Source of the DNA: Mobula hypostoma | Lineage: Eukaryota | DNA: 64,000 nucleotides | Direction of reading: 5' to 3' | NCBI RefSeq assembly: GCF_963921235.1 | Contig: NC_086108.1 | Location: 43,650,001 to 43,714,000, forward strand | Shown: positions 2 to 53,305 of the stretch, piece by piece | Layout: each line of letters starts with the position of its first letter | Position numbering within the stretch: the stretch's first letter is position 1 | Made by a program: the position numbers and the translations under genes | Notes under the pieces: model-generated | Database searches by the model: none | Seen by the model: the letters and a program-made list of their open reading frames with translations, nothing else | Told to the model about the DNA's origin: nothing

Positions 2-879
2 AGGAAGCAGTGGGACCGCACGTATTTAGAGTTTGCCCGTGAGATGCAGACATATTGTGAGCGTTGGTGCGCCTCGAAGGGGGTAGAGGGGGATTATGAC
101 AGACTGCTACAGCTGATCCTGATTGAACAGTTTAAAGGTTGTGTCCCTGAGGGTATGAGACCCTACCTAGATGAGAAAGAGGCAGCCACGTTAGCCGCAA
201 CTGCTAAGTTAGCGGATGAATATGCGTTGATGCATAAAATGAAGTTTTCCCCGAGTAAAGGCTACCAGAAGGGTAGTCAGGACGGCGGGGAAAGCCCGCC
301 GGAAAAGTCAGAAAGTAAGCCGGGGACTAGTGAGAAGGATAAGGTAGACTGGGAGCAGTCTGGTAGGAAGTCTCCTGGGGTCGTCTGTTATAATTGCGGG
401 AAAGTCAGACACTTTGCGTCCAGGTGCTTTGCCCCAAAGAAGGAGACGGGAAAAGGAAAAACGGCGATTTTGACTGGCTGTATCGAGCTGGTAAACGAAC
501 CGCTAGGGAAGGACAGGTCTGCCAAAGTTCAGGAAGGGCGCGAGAAGTTTATCTCGGCCGGATTGGTGTCAGTGAAGGAGGGGTTAAAACCAGTTCCAGT
601 CCGGATCTGGAGAGACACGGGAGCGTGTCAGTCACTAATACTGAAGAGTGTATTAGAGTTTAGCTCAGAGACCCAGACTGGGGAGTTCAAGGTCAAAAGG
701 TATTGGAGAAGGGACAGAGACAGTCCCTTTGCACCAGGTACACTTACAAAGTAACCTGGTCTCTGGATTAGTCACAATCGGGGTGAGGTCCGAATTACCG
801 ATGAAAGACGTGGAAGTCTTGCTCGGTAATGACGTCGCCGGGGGAATCGTGTTCCCAGCCGTGAGATTGACAGGTCAGC
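2..879 (+). pseudogene. Gypsy gag-protease region (SCAN-like CA-CTD, zinc knuckle, aspartic protease) with one +1 frameshift
   Basis: Frame open from nt 2: ERWC..DYDRLLQLILIEQF..AKLADEY; CYNCGKVRHFASRC; IWRDTGACQSLI. After the A-run at 695-698 the protease continues in another frame (GIGEGTETVPLHQV..LLGNDVAGG). Confidence 0.85.
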
Positions 880-8205: not shown

Positions 8206-9994
8206 TTCAGGTTGGGACCTGTCATCTGGACTGAAAGATAGGGGGAGGTGACCAGTATACAAACATAGAGAGAAGGGTTGGAAAAGGAGGAGGAGAAAGT
8301 GGGAATCGTACCAGATATGGGAAGGTGCTAAGTGAAAGAGACAAAGGGCTGAAGATAATGGAATCTGATTGGAGATGAAGATGGGGGCATGGAATAAAGG
8401 AAAGGCAAGGCAAGGGCAGATGGGAGTAATCAGTCTAGTTTGTGAATCTTGGGAAGGACTCTGTGATATTACATAACTTAATGGTGGTTATAAATTATTC
8501 TAGCTGTCTGTTTTTGGCCGTGGGAGATCTGCATGTTTCAGAATTTCAGTGAAGCGGCATTCCGCTGTAAAGAATTGGGATTTTTTTTCTTGCATCTTAC
8601 TGGTGATTCCATGGATGTGAGAAAATACAATAGAGGTTTAAAATCTGTTGTTGATTTCTGTTAGCACAGTTGGACTCTTCTAGTCTCTTTGAGTCAATTC
8701 ATTCTCACTCATTCACTCAGCGAGGTTGAAGCAGCTACTACTGCAGAATCTGCCACTTTCACCAGAGGAAGAGAGACCTGAAACTATTCAGGAGGTAAGA
8801 GTTGCCCTCATGGCTCATCACTCAGGCAGATCAACATCTAACCCTCTGTGTTGCCAACACCTGTGAAGATCCCTTGGCAAATCCAAGTTGGTGACTGTAT
8901 GGCACCTCTCTGACAACTCATTGTCCCTGCTAAGTTTTACACTTTGCAATGAGTCAAATCTAATTTACACGAGTAACTAGTGAGTTGATGAGATGGAACA
9001 TTTTGTTTAAATTCTGTCCTGGGTTTCTCAAAAGCACTGCTGCTTTTATTTCTAGTATTGAAATATTCATACTTTCTATACAAGTTCTAAACCTTCAGAT
9101 ATTTAAGACAGATGTGCTTAAGACTAGGAATTTGCAGGTGTTAGGTAAAAGAGGTCTTGCAGACTTTGATGTCGGCAATTCCAGGGTTCTGCTTCATGAA
9201 ATGTTTTCACTGGAGATCCCCTGTGGCTTTACACCAGGACCCAGGCATGCTATTCACAGTAAAAGTTTTCCTTACTAGTACTTCTCAGAGTATGTCACTT
9301 CAAATGCTCAGGGTAAGTTTGTGGACAGCAGGATGACTGCATGTCTATTTTATGTTTGGTTAGGTCTATTTGTTAAATGGATCTGCCATAATTCAATCCG
9401 GTTTCTGTTCTTTCTTCATAGGTGGCCAGTTCAAACTCATAAGACGGTCCAAAAGTTCAAGTTTCAGAGCCTTCTATGGAAGTTTGTGCTGCTCCTTGGA
9501 ACTTGCCGCTTCTTCATTGTAACCCTTCGGTACAATGCTTCCCTCTAGTGGACTTCTCCAATTTGTACCCAAGAGAATTTGCAAATGCTGGATATCCAGA
9601 GTAAAAAATGCTGGAGGAACTCAATGGGTCAGGCAGCATTTACGGAAAGTAATAAACAGTCAACAGTTTGGTGGGGGAGGGGTCTCAGCCTGAAATGTCA
9701 AATGTTTATTTTTTTTCAATGGGTGTTGCATGTCCTGATGAGTTCCTCTATAGATCAGTTGGAAAGCTGGCAGAGCAATGCCAAATAGAATATAATCCTG
9801 ATAGACATGAGGTGATACATTTTAGAAAGGCAAACGAGGTTAGGACAAACTCAGAGCGACAGGACCCAAGAGGCTTTTGATAACAATAATACTGGGGAGC
9901 AAGTCAGTAAGTCCCTTAAAATGGTAGCACAGTTGGGTAAACCGTTGACTAAGGCATGTGGGCTGCCTGCCTTCATTGGCCTTGACAAAGAAAA

Positions 9995-12140: not shown

Positions 12141-14406
12141 AGAAAAAACTGAGTTACATTAAGTATATACATGTCTATTAAATTGTTAAGTTAAAACAAA
12201 AGTAGTGAAGGATGAAGTAGTGTTCATGACTTCATTGTCCATTTAGGAATCGGATGTCAGAGGGGAATTGCTGAGTGTGTGCCTTCAGGCTTCTGTACTT
12301 CCTGCCCAATGGTAGCAACATGAAGTGGGCATGTTCTGGGTGGTGGGGCTCCTTAATGATGAATACCGCCTTGCTAAGAAGATGTATTGGATACTACTTA
12401 GACTGGTACCCACAATAAATCTGACTAATTTAACAAGCTTCTGCAACTTATTTCTATCTTGTGCAGTTGCCCCGGCCCCCATACCAGGCGGTGATGCAAC
12501 CAGTCAGAATGCTCTCCACGGTACATTTGTAGAAGTTTAAATGTTTTATTTGACAAACCAAATCTCCTCAAGCTCCTAAGGTCACTCTCAGCCTCCTAGG
12601 CTTCAACGGGAATAAATCCAGCCTATCCTATCTCTCCTTGTAATCACAGGTCTTCATTCTAGACAACATCCTAGTGAAGCACTTCTGCACTTTAAAGCTA
12701 CTTTTAATTACTGTCATGTTGTAACCATAAATGTACACAATACTCCCAATGCAATCTAACCAATGCTTTCTACAGCTGTAACATAGCATTGCAGCTCCTA
12801 TATTCAGTACGTCAGACTATGAAGGCAAACATACCAAATACCCTTTTCACCACCCTACCTGTGTCACTACTTTCAATCAGCTACTGACGTACACTCAAGA
12901 TGCCTTTGTATGTCAATGCTCAAAAGGTGCCTTCCATTTACTCTACATGTCTAATGAGAATTTCACTTCCTAATTTGCATTTCCTCACACTTATTTTGAT
13001 TAAATCCAATTTTAATTTATGTCTTGTTGTAACATTGGAACCACCTTTTTTGCTATCTACAATGTTCTGTGTTGCCTGAAAACTTACTAATCAGACCACA
13101 GTGTGCTGATTGGGCATTGGTCGCACGTTCATGTTGAAAGATGAAAAAGTAATTTATAACAATAAAAATGTCCCACAGTACACACCATTTGATACAGATT
13201 TCCAGTCAGAAAAAGAACCCATTCATCATTGCCCTTTGCCTTCCATCACCAAGCAAGCCAATTTTGGATCCAATGCTTGCTTTCATTGGCTGAGACTTCA
13301 GTATCTTTATCAGCCACAGCAGAGGAACTAGAAAACTGGAAGATAGCTAATGTTAACCAAATTCAGAAAGGTCCACGTGGAAAAGCCTGAAAACTACAGC
13401 TGCATTATGCCATCATTTTCTGAACCAACCTACAATTTTTGTCTGTCCCAAAAGCTTTACAGAAATTCAGGGAAACAGTGTCTACTGCACCACTTTTATT
13501 AATTATTCCAGTCATTTCCTAAAAAGATGATCAAATTTTAGATATGATCTCTCCCACACTATTGTGTCCAGGCTTAACCCTGCAACCCTTTCTTAGTAAG
13601 GCAACAATAGCAATCCTCCAGTCTTTTGGTTTCCCACCCACAGCTACCAAGAACCTCGTTATCTTCTCCCTTATTTCCATTAGTATCCTGGGACAGATTT
13701 AGTCAGGGTAGGGCATTTATCCACTCCAATATTTTCAACACTTACTGCTTCCAGACTCAGGCAACTGAATGATAAGTATTTTTCGACGTACATTCAGATC
13801 TGAGACCAGATTTTCTTATATATCATCTGCCTACACTGAGAATACCTGCGGTGATATTTCTTATCCTACTGAATTACTGACCTCATGAGCATTGTAACTC
13901 CATCCTCGGCTACTTCATCGTGCTCCCCAATATGAAAACTGAAAATGCTGGAAATACTCAGCCTGTCAGGCATCAACTATAGAGAAGTAATTAATGCTGA
14001 ATCTTTCTAGCAGTTTGTATTTCAGATTCCCAATATCTGCAGCTTTTTTAAAAATTCTCAGAGTTTGATAAATCATCATGTCACGACACTGACTTGTACC
14101 ATAAGCATCCAGCTGAATCTGTTTTCAGTACAGTAATTGTTAGCCCCTACTTCCCTAGTGCAGGTCACCCACCCTGAATCTGGCAATCGGTCATTCCGTT
14201 CCACTAACAGTTTGGTCATAGTTTTCGCCAGCCTAATTTCCATTTTCCTGTGTTGCCACGCCAATCCGTCATCACTGTTTTGGCCGTGCTATTAGCTGTT
14301 GGCACGGTCTTCAAAAGCAGCAAATTGTTCCTCTGTGTTATTTAACATTTATTTTTATAATCTGACCTCATCTAGCCCAAGTCATGTTTTCATTGAATAA
14401 AGGAAG

Positions 14407-14548
14407 TGCGTCAGGACAAAGGGTCTCGGCCTGAAACGTCGACTGCGCCTCTTCCTACAGATGCTGCTTGGCCTGCTGCGTTCACCAGCAACTTTGATGT
14501 ATGTTGCTTGAATTCCCAGCATCTGCAGAATTCCTGTTGTTTGCGTTT
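14407..14548 (+). mobile_element. Short Penelope-type hammerhead-derived element (degenerate core)
   Basis: AAGGGTCTCGGCCTGAAACGTCGACTG..GATGCTG..CAGCATCTGCAGAATTCCTGTTG, nearly identical to copies at 39182, 39521 and 40688. Confidence 0.8.
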
Positions 14549-32216: not shown

Positions 32217-32964
32217 GTATATCAAGCAGTAGTAAATCAAGGCAAATGGACTTGATGTTTTGTCTAGATGTTTCACCACTCATTCAAGAGACTTATTCAG
32301 ATCTGATCCATGGTGGGTAGTTTTCCAGCTTACAAACTCTGAGTTGTTTAAAGATATAACCATCACATGAGGGTTGTTAAGAGTCATAGTGGTAATGAGA
32401 GGCTCATTAGTCTTATCTTTGCATGAATGGAGGTGTGACCTGTTGTGGAGACACCAGGGAGAGATGTTAGGACTGCATTGTAAGTAGCTGATAGGTGGTG
32501 TCATTACCCCACCCTCCCTGTTCAGGCAATACACACAAAATGCTGGAGGAACTCAGCAGGCCAGGCAGCATCGATGAAAAAAAGTACAGTTGACGTTTCA
32601 GCCCGAAACCCTTCAGTCCAACCGAAGGGTTTCAGCCCGAAACATTGACTGTACTTTTTTCTATAGGTGCTGCCTGGTCTGCTGAGTTCCTCCAGCATTT
32701 TCTGTGCGTTGCTCGGACTTCCAACATCTGCAGATTTTTTCGCGTTTCCCTCTGTTCAGGGATGGGTTTTCCAGTTTGACAAAGATGGCTTCTTTAACCT
32801 CTCTTTCAAACCACCCCTCCTCCCTGTCCAAAATGTGCACATTGTTATCAAAGGACCTCTCATTACCTCTACAACTCTCATGTGATTGCCTCTCGGACGA
32901 ATGCCGAAACGTCTTCTAGACAACACAGCAAGTCCAATTGCCTTGATTTACTACTGCTTGATAT
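32217..32964 (-). mobile_element. Penelope-like element 3' fragment (GIY-YIG C-terminus) with inverted terminal repeats
   Basis: Minus strand ~32750-32855 encodes FDNNVHILDREEGWFEREVKEAIFVKLENPSLNR; 32221-32275 is an inverted copy of 32906-32962. Confidence 0.75.
32527..32747. mobile_element. Palindromic Penelope-type hammerhead-derived element
   Basis: Arms 32527-32614 and 32624-32711 are reverse complements; flanked by CTGTTCAGG (32518-32526, 32752-32760). Confidence 0.8.
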
Positions 32965-38069: not shown

Positions 38070-38482
38070 CTTTGGTTTCCAGTTCAGGAAATGGTTCCAG
38101 GCGATTTCGCATTCTATTCACCGTCTGCTCCCTAAAAATAACTGGGATGGGATGTGGCCCCAGTGAATCCCATAAATCTTTTGGCGGTTTTATTCCAACA
38201 CTGTTCCAAACGACAATGATTTTATGCAGGTTTGGAATGGCCTGATAATGATTCAGCAGTTTAAGAAGCAGGTCCGTCCTGTTGTAGGTCTGCATCACGA
38301 TGGTGAATGAATTACGAGTGTCGATTCTGTGCACGTCCTGCTCTCTACGGACCACAGTAGCTCCGCTTTCCACAACTTTGGGCAATAACGTGGTCAAGAC
38401 AGCTCCCACAATAAGAACAATTAGAACAGCCATCACTAAATACGAGGGAAGAGTCCCACCACCAAACAACCGTCTTGTGAAT
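38070..38482 (-). CDS. EXTL2: EXTL2 413-nt coding exon (type II membrane anchor and start of GT64 domain)
   Basis: Acceptor TTTTACATTCACAG, donor AAG|GTAAAT; VLIVLIVGAVLTTLLP..SFTIVMQTYNRTDLLLKLLNHYQAIPNLHKIIVVWN..NRMRNRL. Confidence 0.95.
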
Positions 38483-39181
38483 CTGTGAATGTAAAACAGC
38501 TGAGTGAAATATTGTAAACAATTCTCATTCACAAAACCCCTCACCCAGATTCCAAACCTACTTAGCTGAGACAGATATCCTCCAATTCTAATAGAAGGAC
38601 TAATGAATAAACAAAACATAAAAAAAGCTTTGAAGTATTTGACCAGCACGGTGTTGCAGCAGTTAGTACAGCAACAGCCACATGGGCTCAATTCCTGCCA
38701 CTGTCTGTAAGCAGTTAGTACGTTCTCCAGGTGACTGCGTGGGATTCCTCCCCGTGCTCCGGGCCTGTTACAGTGCTGTATCTCTAAATAAATTTTTTTT
38801 TGGTAACCTCTGAAATAAGAAGAAATTTTCATTGTCTCGCAAGGCCTGTAATTATATCCATCTGATTTAGGCACATATTGCATTAAAGTGAGTCTTATTT
38901 CCTATGTCAACCCAGATAGTATGGCCAAAGTTGTCCAAACTGGATGACATGAGGATATGAGAGGCAGATCAAACCCATTATTATTCTCACTTTCCTAACT
39001 TGGAATGGACAATTAGTTTTTTTATATACATTCCATGTTATTTCTGAGAGTTTTTTTTCCATAAAAAAGACACAAAGCACTTAATTTGCTTGTCATTTTC
39101 TTTTAACAAAGCTGTTTATTTTTTTTTAAACTGCCAAGTATCAAGATTGCTAACATGTAATTCCAGAATTGTATCCACCTG

Positions 39182-39272
39182 ACAAAGGGTCTCGGCCTGA
39201 AACGTCGACTGCACCTCTTCCTACAGATGCTGCCTGGCCTGCTGCGTTCACCAGCAACTTTGATGTGTGTTG
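39182..39272 (+). mobile_element. Short hammerhead-derived retroelement with TSD
   Basis: 14-bp TSD ATTGTATCCACCTG (39168-39181, 39273-39286); core CTGACAA..GAAACGTC. Confidence 0.85.
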
Positions 39273-39520
39273 ATTGTATCCACCTGTCAGTTTCCCATAA
39301 AATGTCTAGATAATTTAATATTATAGCAATCATACCTGTCAGCAATTTTTACTCATCCCACTTCCAAAGAGTCCCAGCCCTGAAACATTGACCATGTCTT
39401 CCTGCATTTCAAATGCACTTTGTTTTTTTTTAATTTCAGATTTCCATCAGATTTTTTCACCTAGTAAGGAAAGAGGGCTGGGGCCAAGTACAGTATTCAA
39501 ACCAAGTTCAGTTAGCTTAA

Positions 39521-39654
39521 CTTGGACCCTGACAAAGGGTCTCAGCCTGAAACGTCGACTGCACCTCTTCCTAGAGATGCTGCCTGGCCTGCTGCGTTCA
39601 CCAGCAACTTTGATATGTGTTGCTTGAATTTCCAGCATCTGCAGAATTCCTGTT
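39521..39654 (+). mobile_element. Short hammerhead-derived retroelement with TSD
   Basis: 15-bp TSD GTTCAGTTAGCTTAA (39506-39520, 39655-39669); core CTGACAA..GAAACGTC. Confidence 0.85.
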
Positions 39655-40261
39655 GTTCAGTTAGCTTAAGGACGGAATATGCTATGACCTCGTTTTCAAA
39701 ATGCCCTAGCACTTTAGGAACTGCAGAAGAGCTTTCAGTACAAGTTTCCATAGAAACGCTGCTTGGAAATCAAGGGGTAGCTTGTCTGCATTGGAATGCA
39801 TTTACATCACAAGACACTGTTCTATTTGCGAAAGCGACGAAAACACATAAGGATGACATATGGATCGAAAGTAATAGCGTACTCATTGCAATGAATGAAT
39901 CAGAGGGAAGAGAATGCTATACATAGAAAATAAATCGTCTCGTTGACCAGAAGAGTGCGTGGTAGTAACTGGGGATCTCAAAGCACTGCTGCGGAGCTGC
40001 AATAAACATCCCAGATTTTGGCTTTTCCTGCCAGCCCATATATTTAGGCCTCAACATCGGAGCCCGCGTCCCTGATCTCCCAATCCGAGGAAACGGACAG
40101 TGCAGTCCCAAAACAGGGACAAGGGGGCAAGGAGCGTGGGGAAGGAAAGAAAAGGCAACAGCTCGCCACCTACAACCGTTCAAACCCACCTCCTTCAGAC
40201 TGAACAACCAGGATAATTTATAATCAGTGCAGATCCACTCCACGCGGTCGCTAGAACCCAC

Positions 40262-40266
40262 CTCAT
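40262..40266 (-). CDS. EXTL2: EXTL2 first coding segment (ATG AG, phase-2 donor)
   Basis: Minus strand GTGTCATGAG|GTGGGT; phase matches the exon starting at 38482, giving MRFTRRL..; total CDS 5+413+71+492 = 981 nt. Confidence 0.75.
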
Positions 40267-40269
40267 GAC

Positions 40270-40360
40270 ACAGCGGCCCCACATCTACAACCACTATCGT
40301 AACTCACACCTGAGCCCGCAGAACGCATGCGCGCTCAAACGCCCGCTCGCGGCTCATTGC
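40270..40360 (-). promoter_or_regulatory. Small CpG-rich patch with NRF1-like motif upstream of the EXTL2 ATG
   Basis: CGCATGCGC at 40324-40332 within a CpG cluster in otherwise CpG-poor DNA. Confidence 0.5.
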
Positions 40361-40687
40361 CTCTGTCAATCACTTTTAATCCTATTTACAGTTTTCTCAC
40401 CGGAATAGAATAGAATAGAGAAAAAAATTCATTTCACACTTGCACCCAATTAAAGACGACATATCTTGCAGTATGAGGTCACCACTGGTAACAATACTAT
40501 TTCAAGGTATAACTTTTTAAAAATTTTATGGGCACGTTTGTGCGTCACTCTTAGTTTTGATGGATTGCTTCGGGGAACCAGCAGCTTCCTATTTCTGGTT
40601 CACAGGCCCCACATAAGAAAGGAGGAATTTCTCTGGGTTTGCTTTAAAATATCCCACTGATGGATGGCCTGACCCAAAGTGTTAACT

Positions 40688-40910
40688 AACAGGAATTCTG
40701 CAGATGCTGGAAATTCAAGCAACACACATCAAAGTTGCTGGTGAACGCAGCAGGCCAGGCAGCATCTCTAGGAAGAGGTACAGTCGACGTTTCAGGCCGA
40801 GACCCTTCGTCAGGACTGACCCTTCGTCCTCGGCCTGAAACATCGGCTGTACCTCTTCCTAGAGATGCTGCCTGGCCTGCTGCGTTCACCAGCAACTTTG
40901 ATGGGTGTTG
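40688..40910. mobile_element. Palindromic hammerhead-containing element inserted into an older relative
   Basis: Inverted arms ~40719-40800 / 40828-40911; 14-bp TSD CCAAAGTGTTAACT (40674-40687, 40911-40924). Confidence 0.85.
40781..40818 (-). ncRNA. Minimal type I hammerhead ribozyme motif (Penelope-type)
   Basis: Minus strand CAGTC-CTGACGA-AGGGTCTCGGCCT-GAAAC-GTC-GACTG: stem I CAGUC/GACUG, intact CUGANGA and GAAA boxes, GUC cleavage triplet, palindromic ACGU stem III. Confidence 0.75.
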
Positions 40911-41169
40911 CCAAAGTGTTAACTGTTTATTTCCCTCTACAGATGCTGCCTGAGCTGCTGAGTTCCTCCAGCATTTTGTATGTGCGACTGTTTCACTTTG
41001 CACGGATGTTGCTTGGCCTGTTGAGTTTTCCCAGCACTGTTTGTCATGATTTTAGATTTCCAGCAGATGCAAAAGCTTGCCCTTGTGGTTATCTATTTCA
41101 TATCTGTCTGATCAATTCTCTTGTGAATGAATCAAAAATGGAAGTTGTATAAGATGTTGGTAAGAGCAA

Positions 41170-44100
41170 AGTTCAAACTACATTTATTATGAAAGTACCT
41201 TTATGTCACCACATACAACCCTGAGATTTGTTTTCCTGTGGCATATACAGCAAATCCAATGAAACACAATAGAATCAATGAGAGACCACACCCAATAGGA
41301 TGGACCAACAACCAATGTACAAAAGACAACAAAGTATGCAAATACAAAAGAAAAATATAACAATAATAATAAATATATATCAAGAACATGAGATGAAGAG
41401 CCCTTGAAAGTGGGTCCAGAGGTTCTGGGAAGAGTTCAGTGGTGGGGCGAGTGAAGTTATCCCCACAGGTTCAGGAGACTGATGGTTGAGGGGTAACAAC
41501 TGTTTCTGAACCGAGCAGTGTGAGTCCTGAGGCTCCTGTACCTCCTTCCAGATGGTGGTAGCGAGAAGAGAGCATGATTTTGGTGGTGTGGGTCCTTGAT
41601 GTTGCTTTTCTCCAACAGCGCTACAGTATGGTGTGTTGGCATTCATCAACCATGGGATTGAGTTCAAGAGCCGTGAAGTAATGTTACAGCTGTATAAGAC
41701 CTTGGTCAGAACCCACTTGGAGTACTGTGTTCAGTTCTGGTCACCTCACTACAGGAAGGATGTGGATATTATAGAGAGAGTGCAGAGGAAATTTACAAGT
41801 TTGTTTCCTGGATTGGAGGGAGTACCTTATGGGAACAGGTTGAATGTAGTTGACCTTGGAGCAACGGAGGATGAAGGTGACCTGATCAAGGTGTACAAGA
41901 TGATGTGGGGCATTGATCATGTGGATAGCCAGAGCATTTTTCCCAGGGATGAAATGGCTAACACGAGGAGGCATAGTTTTAAGGTGCTTGGAAATAGGTT
42001 CTGAGGGGATGTCAGGCATAAGTTTTTCACACAGAGACTGATGGTTGCGTGGAATACATTGCTGGCAGCAGTGGTGGAACCGGATACAATAGGGTCTTTT
42101 AAGAGCCTTTTAGATAGGTACACGGAACTTAGAAAAATAGAGGGCTATGCACTAGGGAAATTCTAGGCAGTTAGGTTACATGGTTGGCACAACATTGTGG
42201 GCTGAAGGGCCTGTAATGTGCTGTAAATTTCTATGTTCTATGTAGTATGCTCTCCACCACACATATATAGTGATTTGTCAAAGTTTTAGATGTCATGCCG
42301 AATCTTCACACATTTCAAATGAAGCAGACATGGTTTAAGGCACTGATGTGCTTTCTTCATAATTACACTTGCTGCACCCGGAACAGACCCTCTGAAATGA
42401 CATCACCAAGGAATTTAAAGCTGCTGACTCTCTCCATCTCTGTTCCTCTGATGAAGACTGGCTCATAGACCTCCAATCTCCTCCTCCTAAAATCAACTAT
42501 CATCTCCTTGGTCTTGCTGACACTGAGTTGAGTGTTATCGTGGCACCACTCAACCAGATTTTCAATCTCCCTCCTATATGCTGATTCACCATCACCTTTG
42601 ATTTGGCCAACAACAGAGGTGTCCTCTGCATACTTAAATGTGGCATGAGAGAGGAGTTGGCCAGAATTGATTGGAAGAGAATACCGACAGGGATGATGGC
42701 AGAGCAGCAATGGCTGGAATTTCTGGAAGCAATTTGGAAGGCACAGGATATATACATCCCAGACAGGAAGAAGTGTTCTAAAGGAAAGATGATACAACGG
42801 TGGCAACAAGAGAAGTCAAAGTCAACATAAAAGCCAAAGAGAGGGCATATAATAGAGCAAAAATTAGTGGGAAGTTAGAAGATTGGGAAGCTTTTATAAA
42901 CCAACAGAAAACAACTAAAAAAGTCATTAAGAAGGAAAAGATGGGATATAAAAGTAAGCTAGTCAATAATATTAAAGAGAATACCAAAAGTTTCTTCAGA
43001 TATAAAGAGTGTAACAGAAACATGAGAGTGGATATCAGACAGCTGGAAAACAATGCTGGGGAAGTACAAACGTTTGTAGTAATGTGGGACACTGAAATGG
43101 TGGACGAACAGAATAAGTACTTTGCATCATCTTCACAGTGGAAGACACTGGAAGTATGATGGAAGTTCAAGGTGGCAAGGGTCATGAATTGAGTGAGGTT
43201 ACCATAACTAGAGAAAAGATTCTTGGGAAACTGAAAGGTCTGAAGGTAGATAAGTCATCTGGACCAGATAGTGTACACCCCAGGGTTCTGAAAGAGATGG
43301 CTGAAGAGATCATAGAGGCATTAGTAACGATCTTTCAAGAACCACTAGATTCTGGAATGGTTCCAGAAGACTGGAAATTGCAAACGTCACTCCACTCTTC
43401 AAGAAGGGAGAGAGGCAGAAGAAAAGAAACTATAGGCCAGTTAATCTGACCTCAGTGGTTGGGAAGATGTTGGTTGATTATTAAGGATGAGGTCTCAGGG
43501 TACTTGGAGAAACATGATAAAATAGGCCGCAGTCAGTATAATTTCCTCAAGGGAAGGAAAATCTTGCCTGACAAATCTGTTGGAATTCTTTGGAAAAATA
43601 ACAAGCAGGATAAACAATGGAGAATTGGTTGCTGTTGTGTACTTGGATTTTCAGAAGGCCTTTGACAAGGTGCCACACGTGAGGCTGCTTAAAAAGTTAC
43701 ATGCCCATGGTATTACAGGATAGATTCTATCATGGATAAAGCAGTGGCTGATTGGCAGGAGGCAAAAATTGGGAATAAAGGAAGCCTTTTCGGGCTGGCT
43801 GCCAGGGACTAGTAGTGTTGAAACCAATTCTTTTTACGTTATATGACAATGATTTGGATGACGGAATTGATGGTTTTGTTGTAAAGTTTGCAGACGATAT
43901 GAAGATAGGCAGAGGGGCAAGTAGTTTTGAGGAAGTAGTGAGGCTACAGAAGGACTTCGACAGATTTGAGAGATGGGCAAAGAAATGGCAGATGGAATAC
44001 AGTGTCAGAAGGTGTATGGTCATGCACTTCGGTAGATGAAATGAAAGGGTTGAGTATTTTCTAGATGGAGAGAAAATACAAAAAACTGACATGAAAAGGG

Positions 44101-45520
44101 ACTTGGGAGTCCTTGTGCAGGATTCCCTAAAAATAACTTGCAAGTTGAGTCTGAGGTGAGGAAGACAAATGCAATGCTACCATTCACTTCAAGAGGACTA
44201 GAATATAAAAACAAGGATATAATGCTTAGACTTTATAAAGCACTGGAGAGGCCTCACTTGGAGTATTGTGAGCAGTTTTGGGCCCCTTTCTTATATAAGA
44301 AAGGATGTGCTGAAACTGGGGAGGGTCCAAAGGAGGTTCATAAAAATGATTCCAGTATTGAATGGGTTGTCATATGAAGGGTATTTAATGGCTCAGGGCC
44401 TGTATTCACTGGAATTCAGAAGAATAAGGGGTGACCTCATTGAAGCCTATTGAATGCTGGAAGGCCTTGATAGAGTGGATGTGGAGAGGATGTTTCCTAT
44501 GGTGGGAGAGTCTAAGACAAGAGGACACAGCCTCAGAATAGAGGGGTGTCCTTTTAAAATGAAAATGAGGAGGAATTTCTTTAGCCAGAGTGTGGTGAAT
44601 CTGTGGAATTCTTTGCCACAGGCAGCTGTGGAAGCCAAGTCGTTATGTATATTTAAGGCAGAGGTTGATAGATTCTTGATTGATCAGGGCATGAAGGGAT
44701 GTGGGGAGAAGGTAGGAGATTGGGACTGAGAGTAAAATTGGATTAGGCTTGACAAAATGGCAGAGCATACTCGATGGGCCAAATGTCCTAATTCTGCTCC
44801 TAGATCTTGAGGTCTTATAGAGTAGAGTAGGAGGCGAAGCACACAGCCTTATGGTGCACAGGTGTTGACGAAGATTATGGGGATGTTATTGTCAATCTGA
44901 ACTGACTGGGGTCTAGAAATGAGGATATCAAGGATCCAATTGCACCAAGAGGTATTGTGGTCAAGATCTTAAAGATTATTGATTAGTTTTCAGGGGATGA
45001 AAGTAGTGAATGCCGAGCTGTAATCAAAGAAGTTGTATGCATCTTTGCTGTCCAGATGTTCCAGGGTTGAGTGAAGAGCCAATGAAATGGAATCTGCTGT
45101 GGACCTGTTGTTACAGTAGGCAAATTAGAGAGGATCCAAATTGCTTCTTAGGTAAGACATGATAGGTTTCATCACCAACTTCTCAAAGCATTTCATCACA
45201 GTGGATTTAAGTGCTACATGACAATAGTCATTGAGGCAGGCTACCATGTTCTTCTTAGACACCTGTACAATTGAAGCCTGCTTGAAGCAGGTGGGTACCT
45301 CAGAGTGCCAAAGTGCGAGGTTAAAGATATCAGTGAACACTCCAGCCAGTTCATCAGCACAGGTCTTTGGTACTTGGCCAGGTACCCCATCAGGGCCAGG
45401 TACTTTCTGTGGGTTCACCCTCCTGAAGGATGTTCTCACGTCAGCCTCAGAGACTGAAATCACAGGGTCATTGAGGGATGTGGGGGTTTTCTCCATGTTT
45501 CGATGGTCAAAGTGAACATA
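41170..45520 (-). mobile_element. Rex1/Babar-like LINE (minus) interrupted by two plus-strand CR1-like LINEs (~41626-42242 and ~42642-44818)
   Basis: Rex1 ORFs 45125-45580, 42363-42640 and 41457-41625; CR1 ORFs 41633-42004, 43138-43449 (KSSGPDSVHPRVLKE), 43815-44039 (KFADD) and 44454-44729. Confidence 0.8.
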
Positions 45521-45859
45521 GAAGACATAGAGCCCACTTGGGAGTGAAGCCTTGTTGTCACCAATGTTGTTTAGTTTCACTTGGTACGATTTGGATTACT
45601 GTGTGCTGTTCTGGTCACAGACCTACAGGAAAGATATTAATAAGATTGAAAGATACAGAGAAAATATACAAGGATGTGTCTGGGATTTGAGGTCCTGAGT
45701 TAAAGGGAAAGGTTGAATAGGTAAAGACATTTTTCTCTCCGAGCACGGGAGATTGAGGAGAGATTCGATAGAAGTGTAGAAAATATTTTTATACATTCTT
45801 TGATAATATATGTATTTTGAAACTTTGAATCTTTGAATCTAGAGTCTGCTGAGAGCCAG

Positions 45860-47595
45860 ATCAGAGGCATTCAAGTCTGGAGATCAAAAATGCTACAAGT
45901 GGGGCAGGTATGATCTCTGGAAAGCCTCCTCTTGGGTGAAGTGGAGATTCCAAACCAGACTGGAATCAACGAGGGATACGTGACTGTTGTGGCAGGGTTT
46001 GAATGCCATAACTTCTGCAAAGTTAAATCTTGTGACAGCAGAGCTTTGCTTCTCGATGAGTTCAATGGCTTCTATACTCACTTTGAACACCAGAAAAGGG
46101 AGGAACCATCACGCACCCCAATGATTCTTTGATCTCAGTATCTGAAGATGACATTGTGTGCTACCTTCAAGAGAGTGAATCCAAGGAAAGCATCCAGTCC
46201 AGACAGATTACCTGGTCAAGTACTAAAGACCTGTGCCAATCAACCAGCTGGTGTATTCACGGATATCTTCAAGCTCTCACTTCAGCAGTGAGTGGTACCC
46301 ACCTGTATCAAGTAGGCTTCAATCGTACTGGTGTCCAAGAAGAGCATGGTAACCTATATAAATGACTATTGGCCAGTGGCACTTACATCCATAGTGATGA
46401 AGTGTTTTGAGAGGCTGGTGTTGAAGCATATGAGCTCCATTCTGAGTGGCAACTTGGATCTGCTCCAATTCACCTACCAAAGCAACAGGTCTACAGCAGA
46501 TGCTCTCTCTATGGCTCTTCACGCAACCCTGGAACATCTGGACAGCAAAGATGCATACATCAGGATGCTTTTTATCGATTACAGCTCAGCATTTGACAGT
46601 ACCTAAACTAATTAGTAAACTCCAAGTCCTGGCCTGAATGCCCCCCAGTGCAATTGGATCCTGGATTTCCTCACTTGTAGACCCTAGTCAGTTTGGATTG
46701 GCAAAAACACTTCCTCCACAATCTCCATCAGCACAGGAGCACTGCAGGGATGTGTACTTAGCCCCCTGTTCTACTTGCTTTACATCTATGACCATGTGGC
46801 TAAGTGTAGCTCCAACACCATATACAGGTTTGCGCTCAACACCACAGTTGTGTGCTGTATAAAAGCGGGTGATGAATCAGCATTTAGGCAGGAGATTGAA
46901 AACTTGGCTGAGTAGTGCAATAACAACAACCTCTCACACAATGTCAATAAGACCAAGGAACTCATTGTAGACTTCAGGCAAGGGAAACCAGAGATCCATG
47001 AGCCTTAATCATCTGAGGATCAGAGGTGGAGAGTGTCAGTAACTTTAAATTCCTTGGTGTCATTATCTCAGACAACCTGTCCTGGACCCATCATACAAAT
47101 ATTATTGCAGAGAAAGCACGACAGCACCTCTACTTCCTCAGGAGTCTGTGGAGATTTGGTATGTCATCAAAGATCTTCGCAAACATCTTTAGATGTATGG
47201 TGAAAAGTGTGCTGACTGGCTGCATTATGGCCCGGTATGGGTACACCAATGCCTTTGATCGGAAAATCCTACCTAAGGTAGTGGATTTGGCCCAGTACAT
47301 CATAGAAAAGAGGCATCCATCATCAAAGATCCTCACCACCCATGCTCTTTTCTCACTGCTGCCATCAGGTAGAAGGTACAAGAGCCTCAGGATTTGTACC
47401 ACCAGGTTCACAAACAGCTACAACCCCTCAACTATCAGGCTCTTGAACAAAAGGGGATAACTACACTCATTTAAGGACTCTTTTATCTTGTTATCCCGTT
47501 CTACAGATTTGCTAAGTATGCCCAGAGTAAACGAATTTCAGGGTGGTATATGGTGACATGAATGTACTCTGAAAATAAATTTTACTTTGAACTTA
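45860..47595 (+). mobile_element. Rex1/Babar-like LINE RT and 3' end, degenerate
   Basis: ORFs 46331-46606 ([26 protein letters not shown]) and 47026-47460; 3' UTR ending AATAAATTTTACTTTGAACT. Confidence 0.8.
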
Positions 47596-47984
47596 TTCTG
47601 ACAAATGGAAGAGCTACTTTCCTTCCTTTTCTTACTTTTAGTAATTATTCTTTCTTATCAGTCTTATATACTTTTGATGTAAGTGATTATAATACTGTGG
47701 GGGTACCATTACCATATTGAGTGTTTTTTGTATATTTTCTGTTTACAGACAAAATCATCTCAAGTACAACAGGATAAATAATACCCATTCATTACCTGAG
47801 AACAGCCTGCAGGAGCTTACTTATCCAGCAGGCTTTTATTATTATAAGTTTGAAAAGATTACTCTTTGTCTTTTTTTTCCTAACCAATTATGTAAATTGT
47901 AAATAGCCGAGACCCAAATAATGATTTTTATAGTACGCTTTATTGGACTGCTCGCTGTGCAGAACCTGCTCTCTCCTTGGCATT

Positions 47985-48200
47985 ATGGTGCTGCCATCAG
48001 GACCACCACAGAGGCTGCTGAGTGAGCCTCCAGATGGCCACGGATCAGGAGGTGTAACCTATGGACCAATGCTGCTGGGACATAAGCCAAAGCCTGTTCA
48101 ACCCTAGCTGGGTCGCCTGGGCGAGAGTGTCTGATGTTCAAAGACCCGAAACACCCAATGATCCCAGGTTACATCATATGTCCCAGTGCATCCGAGGATG
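47985..48200 (+). mobile_element. Possible 3' end of a restriction-endonuclease-type (HERO-like) non-LTR element
   Basis: Degenerate AIRTTTEAAE.ASRW coding followed by GCTGGGTCGCCTGGGCGAGAGTGTCTGATG..GACCCGAAACACCCAATGA; recognised from memory only. Confidence 0.4.
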
Positions 48201-48979
48201 AATCTCAGCATCAACTTGCTGATCTGAAAAAATATCCATTTATTCTTATTGTCTGTGTTCTATTCATTGATCCTTGATCCCTACACTCAGTATTAAACAC
48301 TATTCCAAGAGGTTTGTTTATGCAAAACAACTCGGGTGCCACTTTAGTGTACTCCTAAAAACACAAAACTAACTGGATCCCCGTTACGTACTCTACCTAT
48401 TTAAAAAACACCAAGAGATTATCAGATGAACAGAGGAAACAATTCAAGGATGTTGTCTAAATCTTCTTGAAAAAGTTACATTTTAGTTATCCTTGGACCG
48501 ATCTCTCTGTCTCTCTGTCTCTCTCTCTCTCTCGTAGAGGACCTTCAATTACCGAAGCATGCGAGGGGAGCTGGCCAAAGTTAATTAATAGGGGACACTA
48601 GTAGGGATGATGGCAGAACTGCAATGGGTGGAATTTCATCTGCAGCTCAGTTTATGTCAGGAGAATGATTCTCCTATTTCATACCTTGGAAATGTTAATG
48701 AAAATGATGAGGGTTATAGATAGGGTAATTGCAAGCAGGCTTTTTCCACTCAGCTTGGGTGAGACAACTAGAGGTTATGAGTTAAGGGTGAAAGGTGAAA
48801 AGTTTAAGAAACTTCTTCACTCAGAGGGTTGTGATAGTGTGGAACGAGCTGCCAGCGCAAGTGGTCAATGCGTAAGAAAAGTTTGGATGCCTATGGTCCG
48901 AGTGTAGGCCGACGGGACTACTCAGTTTAAATCGTTCAAATAGCCTGTTCTGGGCCGTGCTTTTCTATGACTAATGATC

Positions 48980-49155
48980 AGAATCGCATCGCCTGCTCAG
49001 ATACGGCGGGAGGAGGCCGGCGCACAGCACGGCGCGTTTGCGCCTGCGCCTTGGATGCCGTCGGCTCCGGGCCGTTCCACTCGGCGACCGGAAGTTGCGG
49101 CGAGTCCCGGGTAGGTGCAGTTGCCGTGGAGCGGCGACTGTAGCCTGCGAGCAGC
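48980..49155 (+). promoter_or_regulatory. CpG island promoter / 5' UTR of SLC30A7
   Basis: Dense CpG; NRF1-like TGCGCCTGCGC 49039-49049; ETS/GABP site ACCGGAAGT 49087-49095. Confidence 0.75.
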
Positions 49156-49235
49156 ATGTTACCCCTCTCTATAAAGGACGATGAATACAAGCCGCCACGG
49201 TTCAATCTGCTCCGCAAGGTGTCGGGTTGGTTCAG
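49156..49235 (+). CDS. SLC30A7: Zinc transporter 7 (ZnT7), coding exon 1
   Basis: MLPLSIKDDEYKPPRFNLLRKVSGWFR; donor CAG|GTAGGT; 80 coding nt. Confidence 0.95.
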
Positions 49236-49416
49236 GTAGGTGGGAGGGAATGGGATGGACTGAAGGGGGCTGGGTGTGTATTGGGCTCCAGCCATGGGCC
49301 CTGGGTCCGGGACGGGGACCGAGACCGGAGTCTTACAGCTGGAACATGGGGACGGGTGTAAGGATCGGACTGCCCGCCAAATCCTTCGCCAACTCGCATG
49401 TTTTTTCTATTCTCAG

Positions 49417-49518
49417 GTCCATTTTGTCGGATTCCACATCTCGAAACCTCTTCTTCTTCCTTATGCTCAACCTCTCCTTTGCCTTCGTAGAGCTGCTGTA
49501 TGGGATCTGGAGCAACAG
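49417..49518 (+). CDS. SLC30A7: Zinc transporter 7 (ZnT7), coding exon 2; further exons not found in the window
   Basis: Acceptor TTTTTTCTATTCTCAG; SILSDSTSRNLFFFLMLNLSFAFVELLYGIWSN; donor CAG|GTGAGT; 102 nt, phase 2-2. Confidence 0.95.
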
Positions 49519-51324
49519 GTGAGTGGAGGGAGAGCGGGAAGGACAACCTCCGCTGCAATGCCACGTTGCTGTCTCTAAGAGGAAGTAGGGGAAAGGCCAT
49601 GTACGTTACTCGCAGCCAGGAATTACAGGAACCCTGGACTGAGCCAGGTTCTTCGTATTTTCCTATCTCAGTTATTTTAATAAACGTACTGCCCTTCATA
49701 AATAAGTTTATAGGTGATACAGCTGGCGGTGTCGTTGATAATGAAGCAGAAGGTAGTTGATTTGGAATGTATTGATGGACTGGTCGGAGAATTGGGGGAA
49801 ACATTAAGGAGTGAGTGTATGTAAACAGTAGGATTCTAAGAGTGCAGAGGATGAGGGGTCCCTAGGGATACTGTGATCTGAGATCTGAAGGTAGTGTGGC
49901 GAGTAGATGTTAAGCAGACGTAATGTAGCATTCATTTTTGGCTGGGTTATAGAGGAAATGTGACAGCTGTGTAAAGCATTGGTTAGCCCACAGACAGAAT
50001 GCTGAGTAGTGCTGGTCACCACACCAAAGAGAGGATATGAGAGGATGCAGAAGTGATGAGAACAAAATGCGAGTACTGGAAATCAGTAAGGTTGTTGCCA
50101 TTTATGGAGAAGTTCGGTTATGAGGAAAGATTGGCCAGTCTTTGGAAGTGGAAGCTGTAGGAGAAATGTGTCAAATTTGTCAATGAAGTCCGAGTTCCCC
50201 TTATAGAGACGTTGTTAACTAGGAAACAGTTGATAACCTCTGTTGTTTTTAATTTTTCTCACTCAAAGTTAGTAGTTAAGAATTCGTTCCCTGAGTGATT
50301 GAGACAGAAATCCTTGTCAATGTTAAGTTAATAATTTGATTTTGACAGGGATGGGCATGATGGACCAAATAGCTGCAGATTTATATGAGACAGTCTGGTT
50401 ATTAGACTTAGCAAGCACCAAGACATTAAATATGTATTTCTTCTGTACATAATTCTACAGATGTTTAAATGAGGGTTTGATGTATACCTGAGAAAGAAAG
50501 TGATGGGTGAAGTCAGGGTATATTCTGGTCTCAAAGCTGTTCTCCTGAACCTTTTTTTCTGCATTGTACTCTATATCTAATGGAAAGTTTTCCCTGATGG
50601 TTCATGGTATGTGCACCTTAATGCCCAAATAATCTGTTGGCCTACTGTTAATTGGAAAATATAATAAAACTGGTATGTCAGTTTATTTGTGGTGTGATTA
50701 TTTTTATATAGTCTGTTTTTGTTGTGGATTTGCCAACTTGAAGTGGTCACCACCTATGTAATTATGGCAGCTAACCAGGAGAGGAAAGGATATGAGAACA
50801 AAAAATTAGATACATCTAATCTAAATTGTGTGTTGGTTAGTATGTCAAGATAAATCTAGACTCTTTAATGGGATCTGGTTTAAATCACAATCAATAAGAA
50901 TAACCAAAACAGCGGTTATACCACGTCCATTCATGGATGGCAATACAGGTGGACTGTTCAAGAACATCCAGTCCTCAGTAATGGTTGAGCCTAGTACAGT
51001 GGGTTATGGAGGACCTGATCTATGCAAATATAGTTTCATGTAAGCTTTCTCACAAGTTTTTAAGTAACTTTTCATAATAGTAATAAAATGTTTTTCTGTA
51101 TTCATTAAGAACTGAATATATATTCCATTAGTTTAATTATGAATAATGTTAGGATGAAGTCTCAATGGAAGAATTATATGACTGCACGGCAATATGATAT
51201 AGATGAGTAAAGAGACATTTCTGACTCTTAGAAAATTCAGATTATAGAGAGTTCTCAGGAACAGAACTATTGCATAACCTGCAAATCATCTATATATAAT
51301 AGTTTTTTTTTAATTTAGCGATAC

Positions 51325-51671: not shown

Positions 51672-53305
51672 CAGCTATAAGAAAAAGTTTGTGAACCCTT
51701 TGCAATTACCTGGTTTTCTGCATTAATTATAAAATGTGGTCTGATCTATATCACAATGATAGACAACACAACCTGCCTAAACTAATAACACACAAACAAT
51801 TGTACTTTTTCATGTCTTTATTGAACACATTGTTTAATCTTTCACAATCCAGGCTGGAAAAAGTATGTGAACCCTTGTACTTAATAACCTCCACCAAATG
51901 TCTCCTGTAGTTGCTGAGCAGACTTGCACAATGTTGAGGAGGAATTTTAGACCATTCCTCTATACAAAGCTATTTTAGTTCATCAATATTTCTGGGATAC
52001 CTTGTAGGAACAGTTCTCTTCAGGTCATGCCACTGCATCTCAAATAGGTTAAAGATCTGGACTCTTACTTGGCCATTCCAAAACACAAACTTACTTTTTA
52101 AACCATTCTGTTGTTGATTTGCTCTTGTGTTTCAGATCATTGCCTTGTTGCATCATCCAACTTCTATTAAGCTTCAGTTAACAGACAGCTGCCCTGACAT
52201 TCTCCTGTAAAATGTCTTGATACAATTTTGAATTCATTGTACAAAACAGCCCCAAACCATGATGCTCTTTCCAACTTGCTTGGCAGTTGGAATGAGGTTT
52301 TAGTGTTGCTGTGCAGTGCCCTTTTCCTCCAAACATAGCCGTGTGCACTTCGGTCAAAAAGTTCAACTTTTGTCTCAGCTGTCCATAGAACATTGTCCCA
52401 GAAGTGTTGTGGAACATCCAGATGGTCTTTTGCAGACTTTTTTTTCCTCCAGTCCTATGAAGGGACTTGGCCCAAAACGTCAGTTGTATTCTTTTCCATA
52501 GATGCTGCCTGGCCTGCTGACTTCCTCCAGCATTTTGTGTGTGTGACATGCAGCTGTGATTTTTTTTTTGGAGAGCAGTGGTTTCCTCTGTGGTGTCCTT
52601 CCACGAACACCATTCTTGTTCAGTTTCTTCGAGTGGACTCGTGAACAGAGACTTTAGCAAGTTCTAAAGATTTCTGCAGGTCTTTTGCTGTTACCATTGG
52701 GTTCTTTTTCACCTCCTTCAGCATTGCACGTTGTGCTGTTGATGTGATCTTTGCAGGGCAACCACTCCTAGGGAGAGTAGCAACAGTACTAAATTTCCTC
52801 CATTTGTAGACAATTTCTCTTACTGTGGACCGATGAACATTCAGGTTTTTAGAAATGCTTTTGTAGCCTTTGCCAGCTTCATGTATCTCTACAATTCTTC
52901 TAAGGACCACTGGAAGTTGTTTTGATCGAGGCATAGTGCACATAAGCAGATCTTTCTTGAAGAGCAGGCTCTGTCAGTAACCTTACTTTGTGTGTCTTTT
53001 TTATAGGGCAGGGCACCTCTACAACCCACATATCCAATCTCATCTCAATGATTGGAACACCTGACTCCAAATGGCTTTTGTAGAAGGCATTACCACAGAG
53101 GTTCACATTTTATTTGAACCTATCCTGTGATTGTTTAAATGGTGTACTCTATTGATGAGAAGAAGCACAACTGTTTTTGTGTTATTAGTTTAGGCAGATT
53201 TTGTTTGTCTATTATTGTGACTCAGCTGAAGATCAGACCACATTTTATGAGTAATTTAATGCAGAAAACCAGGTAATTGCAAAGGGTTCACAAATCTTGC
53301 AACTG
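51672..53305 (-). mobile_element. Tc1/mariner transposon with long (IR/DR-type) inverted repeats, defective
   Basis: TA|CAGCT..CAACTG|TA; long TIRs with internal repeat AAAAGTATGTGAACCCT; MPRSKQLP..RRIVEIHEAGKGYKSISK..EVKKNP; carries a hairpin-element fragment at ~52436-52545. Confidence 0.88.

What the first reader, a model, noticed from the sequence alone, without database searches (positions are those of the whole stretch)
40781..40818. Intact minimal hammerhead ribozyme on the EXTL2 sense strand, ~0.5 kb upstream of the ATG
Seen (minus): CAGUC CUGACGA AGGGUCUCGGCCU GAAAC GUC^GACUG, with 5-bp stem I, complete catalytic boxes, short stem II, GUC cleavage site and a loop-less palindromic ACGU stem III. 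Known: Penelope-type minimal type I hammerheads with palindromic stem III are thought to cleave as dimers. This is the only copy in the window with an unmutated core. Inference: if EXTL2 or a divergent transcript starts at the SLC30A7 CpG island, the motif is transcribed and might cleave with a partner in trans; the flanking inverted arm could instead sequester it.
Basis: partly seen in the sequence, partly recalled or inferred. Interest (0 to 1): 0.72.

Follow-up and report, generated by a model that had tools for sequence, protein, structure and literature searches.

The report
Hairpin-trapped Penelope hammerhead upstream of EXTL2
The 38-base motif is real but ordinary: it is the already described minimal hammerhead motif carried by a short fold-back stub of a very abundant, likely Penelope-type jumping gene that landed about 490 bases upstream of where EXTL2 transcript contigs begin, and it is predicted to be inert because its own mirror-image arm would pair with it.

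Summary
Observation confirmed; regulatory reading not supported. 40781-40818 (-) is an exact minimal type I hammerhead motif, the only full-core copy in the window. It is the 5' edge of a 224-bp fold-back insertion (40688-40911) with a 14-bp target-site duplication, a 131-nt long arm ending in a one-sided 31-nt tail, a 10-nt slipped linker and an 83-nt inverted arm, nested in an older copy of the same family. This is the published layout of Penelope-like insertions. EXTL2 has its own CpG island; spliced contigs in 3 of 4 runs end at 40278-40291, 490+ nt short of the motif; SLC30A7 is 8.3 kb away. Any read-through RNA makes the inverted arm first, and it is predicted to trap the motif (stem I probability about 1e-20). 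Stem II closes with G·U, not the usual G-C. The scan has reported this family, fold-backs and masked copies many times on other DNA of this genome. No cleavage assay, raw reads or whole genome were available. Verdict: passive retroelement scar, interest 0.08.

The parts
40781..40818 (-). Minimal type I hammerhead motif: 5-bp stem I, CUGACGA, bulged A, 4-bp stem II (G·U, G-C, G-C, U·G; CUCG loop), GAAA, ACGU palindrome, predicted cut after C17 at 40786
40688..40818 (-). Long arm of the insertion (131 nt): pseudo-LTR-like stub that begins at the 5' edge of the hammerhead
   Evidence: 94-97% identical to three sister copies
40688..40718 (-). 31-nt tail present on the long arm only
   Evidence: layout as in PMC8557442 and PMC3846280
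40819..40828 (-). 10-nt linker, a direct re-copy of 40802-40811 (likely template slip at the arm junction)
40829..40911 (+). Short inverted arm (83 nt, 3 differences from the long arm), starts in the stem II loop, no tail; antisense to the 3' half of the hammerhead in a minus-strand RNA
   Evidence: (I25)
40674..40687 (+). Target-site duplication, left copy (CCAAAGTGTTAACT)
40911..40924 (+). Target-site duplication, right copy (first base shared with the short arm)
40657..40988 (+). Older decayed copy of the same hammerhead-bearing family, split by the insertion (about 40657-40687 and 40925-40988); the duplicated site aligns with its hammerhead remnant
   Evidence: the pre-insertion site aligns continuously with the copy at 52457-52547, 77%, E 2e-13
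40190..40291 (-). EXTL2 first exon as seen in RNA contigs (neighbour, not part of the element); ATG at 40266-40264
   Evidence: joint 38482-40190 in 3 of 4 runs; gene identity
40001..40400 (.). EXTL2's own CpG island with an NRF1-like palindrome at 40324-40332 (motif label recalled)
39528..39654 (+). Sister copy in EXTL2 intron 1 (antisense to EXTL2), 15-bp TSD, G8 changed to A
39178..39279 (+). Sister copy in EXTL2 intron 1, tail-less, duplicated flank of 11-14 bp, G8 changed to A
14415..14538 (+). Sister copy with tail, first box broken
48801..49600 (+). SLC30A7 CpG island and first coding exons (ATG 49156), 8.3 kb from the motif

Best explanation
The motif is the 5' edge of a 224-bp, TSD-flanked fold-back stub of a high-copy, likely Penelope-like retroelement that inserted upstream of the EXTL2 CpG island, and this copy is predicted to be catalytically silent. 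Shown: two head-to-head arms, one-sided 31-nt tail, 14-bp TSD, nesting in an older copy, EXTL2 contigs ending 490+ nt downstream. Inferred: the element's endonuclease/reverse transcriptase (encoded elsewhere) made a staggered cut 14 nt apart, copied a short RNA from the tail to the front edge of the hammerhead, slipped back 10 nt, and was joined to a second, tail-less copy in the opposite orientation (two-ended model taken from earlier scan notes, consistent with this one junction). The core is unmutated most likely because the copy is young (arms differ at 3 of 83 sites), not because the host keeps it. Predicted: in any minus-strand read-through RNA the short arm is made first and pairs with stem II 3' half, GAAA, ACGU, the cut site and stem I in one long hairpin, so neither monomer nor trans-dimer forms.
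For: TSD, arms, tail, linker. Family: 11 BLAST hits of the long arm in the window including itself; 122,426 contigs of one DNA run lay on the 3.4-kb stretch, with summed depth 7.6 million over the motif bin against 12-24 on unique flanks (not a copy number). Published layout: inverted 5'-truncated copy plus 30-40-bp one-sided tail (PMC8557442; PMC3846280); PLEs tend to insert into older PLE copies (PMC6765202). Folding: element MFE -179.3 kcal/mol, z -21; forcing the hammerhead costs 37 kcal/mol and stem I probability is 1e-20 to 1e-22; already 3e-14 when the last base of the motif is made. Even alone, the open-core fold has P 0.001 against 0.73 for a rod pairing G8 and C17. EXTL2 start: own CpG island; contig ends 40288, 40278, 40291 in 3 of 4 runs of one study and about 40311-40322 in a run of a second study by depth arithmetic, while a DNA contig runs 39633-40712: a weak hint only. 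Single min-HHR showed no cleavage and dimers little (PMC4209133); anole PLE hammerhead needed the element's protein, and no reads ended at its cut site (PMC11167929).
Against: No RT/GIY-YIG ORF of the parent was found or sought genome-wide (no genome held), so Penelope membership rests on layout and motif. RNA data are assembled contigs of runs only guessed to be RNA; they cannot show starts, strand or rare isoforms. If an RNA started at the motif's own 5' edge it would skip the inverted arm and stems I and II would form (P 0.91-1.00); the Drosophila Penelope pseudo-LTR has an internal promoter able to drive downstream genes (PMC2377424). Equilibrium folding ignores proteins and kinetics. Presence of this insertion in the related species could not be read.
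Confidence: 0.9

Rival explanations
1. The stub acts as a minor upstream promoter: RNA starts at the hammerhead's 5' edge, skips the inverted arm, runs into EXTL2, and is cut in trans through ACGU pairing with one of the many family RNAs.
For: Stems I and II form when the RNA starts at 40818. Orientation is sense to EXTL2. Family sequence is abundant in RNA contigs, 2,083-4,388 laid per run. Penelope pseudo-LTR promoter is internal in Drosophila.
Against: EXTL2 contigs end at the CpG island. ACGU/ACGU duplex is only -1.7 kcal/mol, G8 and C17 are predicted paired 93-98% of the time, and the predicted two-strand MFE is not the active dimer. G10.1·U11.1 closing pair. No promoter activity known for this stub.
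Confidence: 0.04
2. One reading: a transcript from the SLC30A7 island reads 8 kb to EXTL2, putting the motif in an intron or 5' leader where it cleaves with a partner.
For: The two genes are divergent neighbours; in mammals they are close head-to-head (recalled, untested).
Against: Separate EXTL2 CpG island; exon-1 contigs end without further sequence in 3 of 4 runs; such an RNA would make the antisense arm first and trap the motif.
Confidence: 0.02
3. The locus matters, if at all, as double-stranded RNA or DNA structure rather than as a ribozyme: an 83-bp hairpin (ADAR or small-RNA substrate) in upstream read-through RNA, or a 127-nt inverted pair with the intronic copy around exon 1.
For: Hairpin z -21; arms 39528-39654 and 40688-40814 are 97% complementary across the CpG island (I7).
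Against: Needs transcription upstream of the island, for which no evidence was obtained; no editing rows in the four runs, though repeat copies make that test blind.
Confidence: 0.04

Closest known systems
Minimal hammerheads (min-HHR) in pseudo-LTRs of metazoan Penelope-like elements (Cervera and De la Pena 2014, PMC4209133; parts 1-2 of 4 read)
   Same: Type I, 5-bp helix I, unpaired base between positions 9 and 10.1, palindromic 15.2-16.2 with no loop 3, mostly solitary copies from truncated elements, opposite-strand pairs close together
   Different: G10.1·U11.1 instead of G10.1-C11.1; 4-bp helix II (7-8 bp in the schistosome families); cartilaginous fishes are not named in the parts read (supplement not read)
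Head-to-head inverted pseudo-LTR insertions of endonuclease-bearing PLEs (PMC8557442 and PMC3846280; passages read)
   Same: Inverted 5'-truncated copy, 30-40-bp tail on one end only (31 nt here), TSD
   Different: No ORF between the arms; TSD 14 bp against 8-10 bp in the rotifer examples read
Poseidon element of Anolis (PAc) hammerhead (PMC11167929; parts 1-2 of 4 read)
   Same: Hammerhead a short way upstream of the tail; insertion ends mark reverse-transcription starts at either side of the tail
   Different: Activity shown there only with the element's protein; no protein or activity shown here; clade of this family not determined
Non-LTR retrozymes (bioRxiv 10.64898/2026.07.22.740005; part 1 of 5 and passages read)
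   Same: Non-coding, type I hammerhead, PLE pseudo-LTR origin, reported in one cartilaginous fish
   Different: Retrozymes are head-to-tail tandems with a hammerhead in each unit; this is a single head-to-head unit with one complete motif

Membership tests
min-HHR of metazoan PLEs | Core boxes CUGANGA, GAAA, UH in type I order | tested here: met
min-HHR of metazoan PLEs | Short helix I (4-5 bp), no stable helix III, palindromic 15.2-16.2 | tested here: met
   5 bp; ACGU
min-HHR of metazoan PLEs | Unpaired base between 9 and 10.1 | tested here: met
   A at 40806; MFE stem II begins after it
min-HHR of metazoan PLEs | G10.1-C11.1 pair (typical, not part of the published descriptor) | tested here: not met
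   G·U in this copy and in all 5 young arms; C kept in 2 of 4 older arms. Lowers 'intact', not descent from the family
min-HHR of metazoan PLEs | Self-cleavage as dimer or with the element's protein | not testable with these tools
   needs in vitro assay
Endonuclease-bearing Penelope-like element insertion | Inverted 5'-truncated copy at the 5' end | tested here: met
   40829-40911, 96%
Endonuclease-bearing Penelope-like element insertion | 30-40-bp tail on one end only | tested here: met
   31 nt
Endonuclease-bearing Penelope-like element insertion | Target-site duplication | tested here: met
   14 bp
Endonuclease-bearing Penelope-like element insertion | Parent ORF with PLE reverse transcriptase and GIY-YIG endonuclease | not testable with these tools
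   no genome held; motif scans of metagenome and viral contigs empty; clade label comes only from earlier AI notes
Non-LTR retrozyme | Two or more head-to-tail units each with a complete hammerhead | tested here: not met
   one complete motif in 64 kb; arms head-to-head
Host-domesticated hammerhead in a gene transcript (category recalled) | Lies inside the host transcript | tested here: inconclusive
   contig ends lie 490+ nt downstream; contigs cannot prove absence
Host-domesticated hammerhead in a gene transcript (category recalled) | Free to fold as a monomer with stable helix III | tested here: not met
   no helix III; predicted sequestered
Host-domesticated hammerhead in a gene transcript (category recalled) | Conserved at the orthologous site above neutral | tested here: inconclusive
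   related-species DNA contigs listed stop at 40293; junctions of this insertion not shown

The most novel reading that the evidence does not exclude
The Penelope stub works as a tissue-restricted upstream promoter of EXTL2 whose RNA begins at the hammerhead's front edge, escapes the inverted arm, and is decapped by ribozyme cleavage only when family RNA or the element's protein is abundant: a host gene wired to retroelement activity through a trans-dimer ribozyme.
Probability: 0.03. Interest if true: 0.6.

Novelty: new member of a known kind. Interest (0 to 1): 0.08.

Why it matters
As read here it matters little: one more decaying copy of a known motif in a known insertion layout, near a gene by chance in a repeat-rich genome. 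It is a clean example of the fold-back junction (run-off at the hammerhead's front edge, 10-nt slip, one-sided tail, 14-bp TSD) useful for work on how Penelope-like elements insert. It would matter only if an RNA starting at the motif and running into EXTL2 were found.

Tried and rejected
Whole-genome counts and parent search: no genome held. Exact motif scans: 0 stretches in metagenome contigs and viral contigs. Rfam: no hammerhead family hit. No RNA holder is on record as RNA; the runs used are guessed RNA, supported by a GT..AG joint. No contig cover in the unique bin 40508-40621 in 4 of 4 runs and in the 2 non-DNA runs, while both DNA runs cover it: absence of cover is not proof of silence. 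Ends at the predicted cut and editing could not be read: contigs only, and thousands of other copies lay on the element. Covariation count on the 9 arms was not obtained (one search failed on a length slip; not repeated, 9 mostly decayed rows would say little). Pfam on 8 of the 75 ORFs listed found no GIY-YIG; the other 67 were not scanned. Literature: 'EXTL2'+'hammerhead' gave 1 paper, seen as a listing only, on zebrafish ext2; 'Penelope'+'shark'+'hammerhead ribozyme' 1 review listing; 'EXTL2'+'SLC30A7'+'promoter' 5 listings, none read; 'G10.1'+'C11.1' 4 listings, so the effect of G·U at that pair is not sourced. Lunse et al. on dimer cleavage is not held; seen only as a reference and through a review's passages. 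Rejected: chance match (0 of 100 shuffles); retrozyme (no tandem); DNA-transposon MITE (unequal arms, one-sided tail, hammerhead at the turn).

Full report
Observation. A descriptor scan of both strands (CUGANGA, GAAA, UH, at least 4 bp of stem I, at most 3 nt between GAAA and UH) returned this one site in 64 kb, and the two-box pattern had 0 matches in 100 shuffles. Rfam does not report it. The best stem II is four pairs behind a bulged A and closes with G10.1·U11.1; the published min-HHR consensus has the bulged base but a highly conserved G10.1-C11.1 pair (PMC4209133). All 5 young arms in the window have the U, 2 of 4 older arms have the C. The size of the effect on rate is not sourced here.

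What it sits in. The motif is one end of a repeat. The 133-nt query 40686-40818 has 11 BLAST hits in the window including itself, three of them separate copies at 94-97% (39528, 14415, 39178). The focal insertion spans 40688-40911 between two copies of CCAAAGTGTTAACT (40674-40687, 40911-40924). It has a 131-nt long arm starting at the first base of stem I, a 10-nt linker that repeats 40802-40811, and an 83-nt inverted arm that starts in the stem II loop, differs at 3 sites and lacks the last 31 nt. With one TSD removed, the flanks align as one older copy of the same family (77% to 52457-52547), the duplicated site lying on its hammerhead remnant. An inverted 5'-truncated copy, a 30-40-bp tail on one end and a TSD are the described marks of endonuclease-bearing Penelope-like insertions (PMC8557442, 12 of 20 passages; PMC3846280, 12 passages), and such elements tend to land in older copies (PMC6765202, passages). 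The family is very abundant: 122,426 contigs of one DNA run lay on a 3.4-kb stretch, with summed depth over five orders of magnitude above the unique flanks (not a copy number). The parent ORF was not seen; no genome is held. That the host is a cartilaginous fish is recalled and stated in earlier AI notes, not tested.

Relation to the genes. EXTL2 (GT64 domain; best PDB match EXTL2, E 8e-79) is on the minus strand; SLC30A7 (ZnT7 matches) starts at 49156 on the plus strand, 8,338 nt from the motif. There are two separate CpG islands, 40001-40400 and 48801-49600. In 3 of 4 runs guessed to be RNA (one study), a contig joins 38482 to 40190 over a GT..AG intron and ends at 40288, 40278 or 40291; the fourth run showed exon 2 only. 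A run of a second study and species covers 18 nt of the 40166-40279 bin and about 43 nt of the next, which puts its end near 40311-40322 (arithmetic from depths, joint not listed). A third-study RNA run did not cover exon 1. A DNA contig passes through 39633-40712. This is a weak hint that EXTL2 starts in its own island, about 490 nt downstream of the motif; contigs cannot show true starts or rare isoforms.

Can it fold? In a minus-strand RNA from upstream, the short arm comes first and is antisense to the 3' half of the motif. The element folds at -179.3 kcal/mol (z -21); forcing an open-core hammerhead (3-bp stem II register) costs 37 kcal/mol, and stem I pairs have probability 1e-20 to 1e-22. 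In prefixes that mimic transcription, stem I is at 3e-14 when the motif is just complete. Against this: an RNA starting at 40818 would form stems I and II (P 0.91-1.00), but G8 and C17 stay paired 93-98% of the time, the open-core monomer has P 0.001, and the ACGU duplex is worth -1.7 kcal/mol. These are equilibrium predictions without proteins or tertiary contacts. Published activity is low: none as monomer, weak as dimer (PMC4209133); the anole element's hammerhead cut only with the element's protein, was dispensable for insertion in vitro, and no reads ended at its cut site (PMC11167929).

Mechanism. Most likely (0.9) a passive scar. Shown: anatomy, TSD, nesting, family abundance, contig ends. 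Inferred: staggered cut, reverse transcription from the tail to the motif's front edge, slip, and joining to a second tail-less copy; this two-ended model is taken from earlier notes of the scan and fits this one junction, which does not test it. The unmutated core is expected of a young copy. Rivals: stub as upstream promoter with trans cleavage (0.04; internal promoter known for Drosophila Penelope, PMC2377424 abstract and discussion), read-through from the SLC30A7 island (0.02), double-stranded RNA effects (0.04).

Known and novel. It works like, and by descent belongs with, the min-HHRs of Penelope-like pseudo-LTRs; activity is untested and the closing pair is atypical. It is not a retrozyme by the tandem criterion (bioRxiv 10.64898/2026.07.22.740005). 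I found no paper on this locus (listings only), but the class is in print, and supplements I did not read (PMC4209133; the preprint's closed tables, which include one cartilaginous fish) may list this very family. Earlier notes of this scan describe the family, its fold-backs, TSD length and a masked copy on other DNA of the same genome; they are unchecked and not independent support. Verdict: new member of a known kind, interest 0.08.

Noticed in passing
window 40190-40291 (-), EXTL2 exon 1: Splice donor differs between species. In this species' contigs (3 of 4 runs) exon 1 ends at 40190; the exon-1 ATGs (40284, 40266) then run into a TGA at 40197-40195, leaving a uORF and a first in-frame ATG in exon 2 at the start of the membrane anchor. 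A second species' run fits the donor at 40262/40261, which keeps the frame open. A third species' DNA differs at +6 of the distal donor (40184). Possible donor shift that shortens the N-terminus; contigs may hide the other isoform.
   Followed up: partly
window 14415-14538, 39178-39279, 39528-39654: All 3 sister copies share G8-to-A (a CpG site) and a second, non-CpG change against the focal copy: either a sub-lineage that spread with a dead core or repeated CpG decay. Earlier notes report a different core-mutant subfamily (A6C).
   Followed up: partly
window 39528-39654 and 40688-40814: 97% complementary 127-nt arms bracket the EXTL2 CpG island and exon 1, 1,033 nt apart.
   Followed up: no
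window 39178 and 39528 copies: DNA contigs of a related species run from unique flank into both intronic copies, so both look shared between the species (under 31 letters on the element side at some junctions).
   Followed up: partly
window 32521-32737 and 9602-9705: Older head-to-head fold-backs of the same family, also turning at the hammerhead.
   Followed up: no
window 14406-14414: The 14415 copy begins with a 9-nt inverted piece of the hammerhead's 5' end, a miniature fold-back (read output).
   Followed up: no
RNA runs X1-X3 laid on 40754-40817: Contigs of 1,949-1,966 nt end in the hammerhead region with about 1.9 kb of other sequence upstream in element sense; candidates for the parent element's coding transcript; letters not available.
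   Followed up: no
window 657-4610 (+): Open 1,317-aa L1-type ORF2 with AP endonuclease, RT and zf-RVT matches.
   Followed up: partly
window 41000-48800: The EXTL2-SLC30A7 intergenic region is about 8.7 kb and filled with LINE-like fragments (family labels not tested), separating two CpG islands.
   Followed up: no
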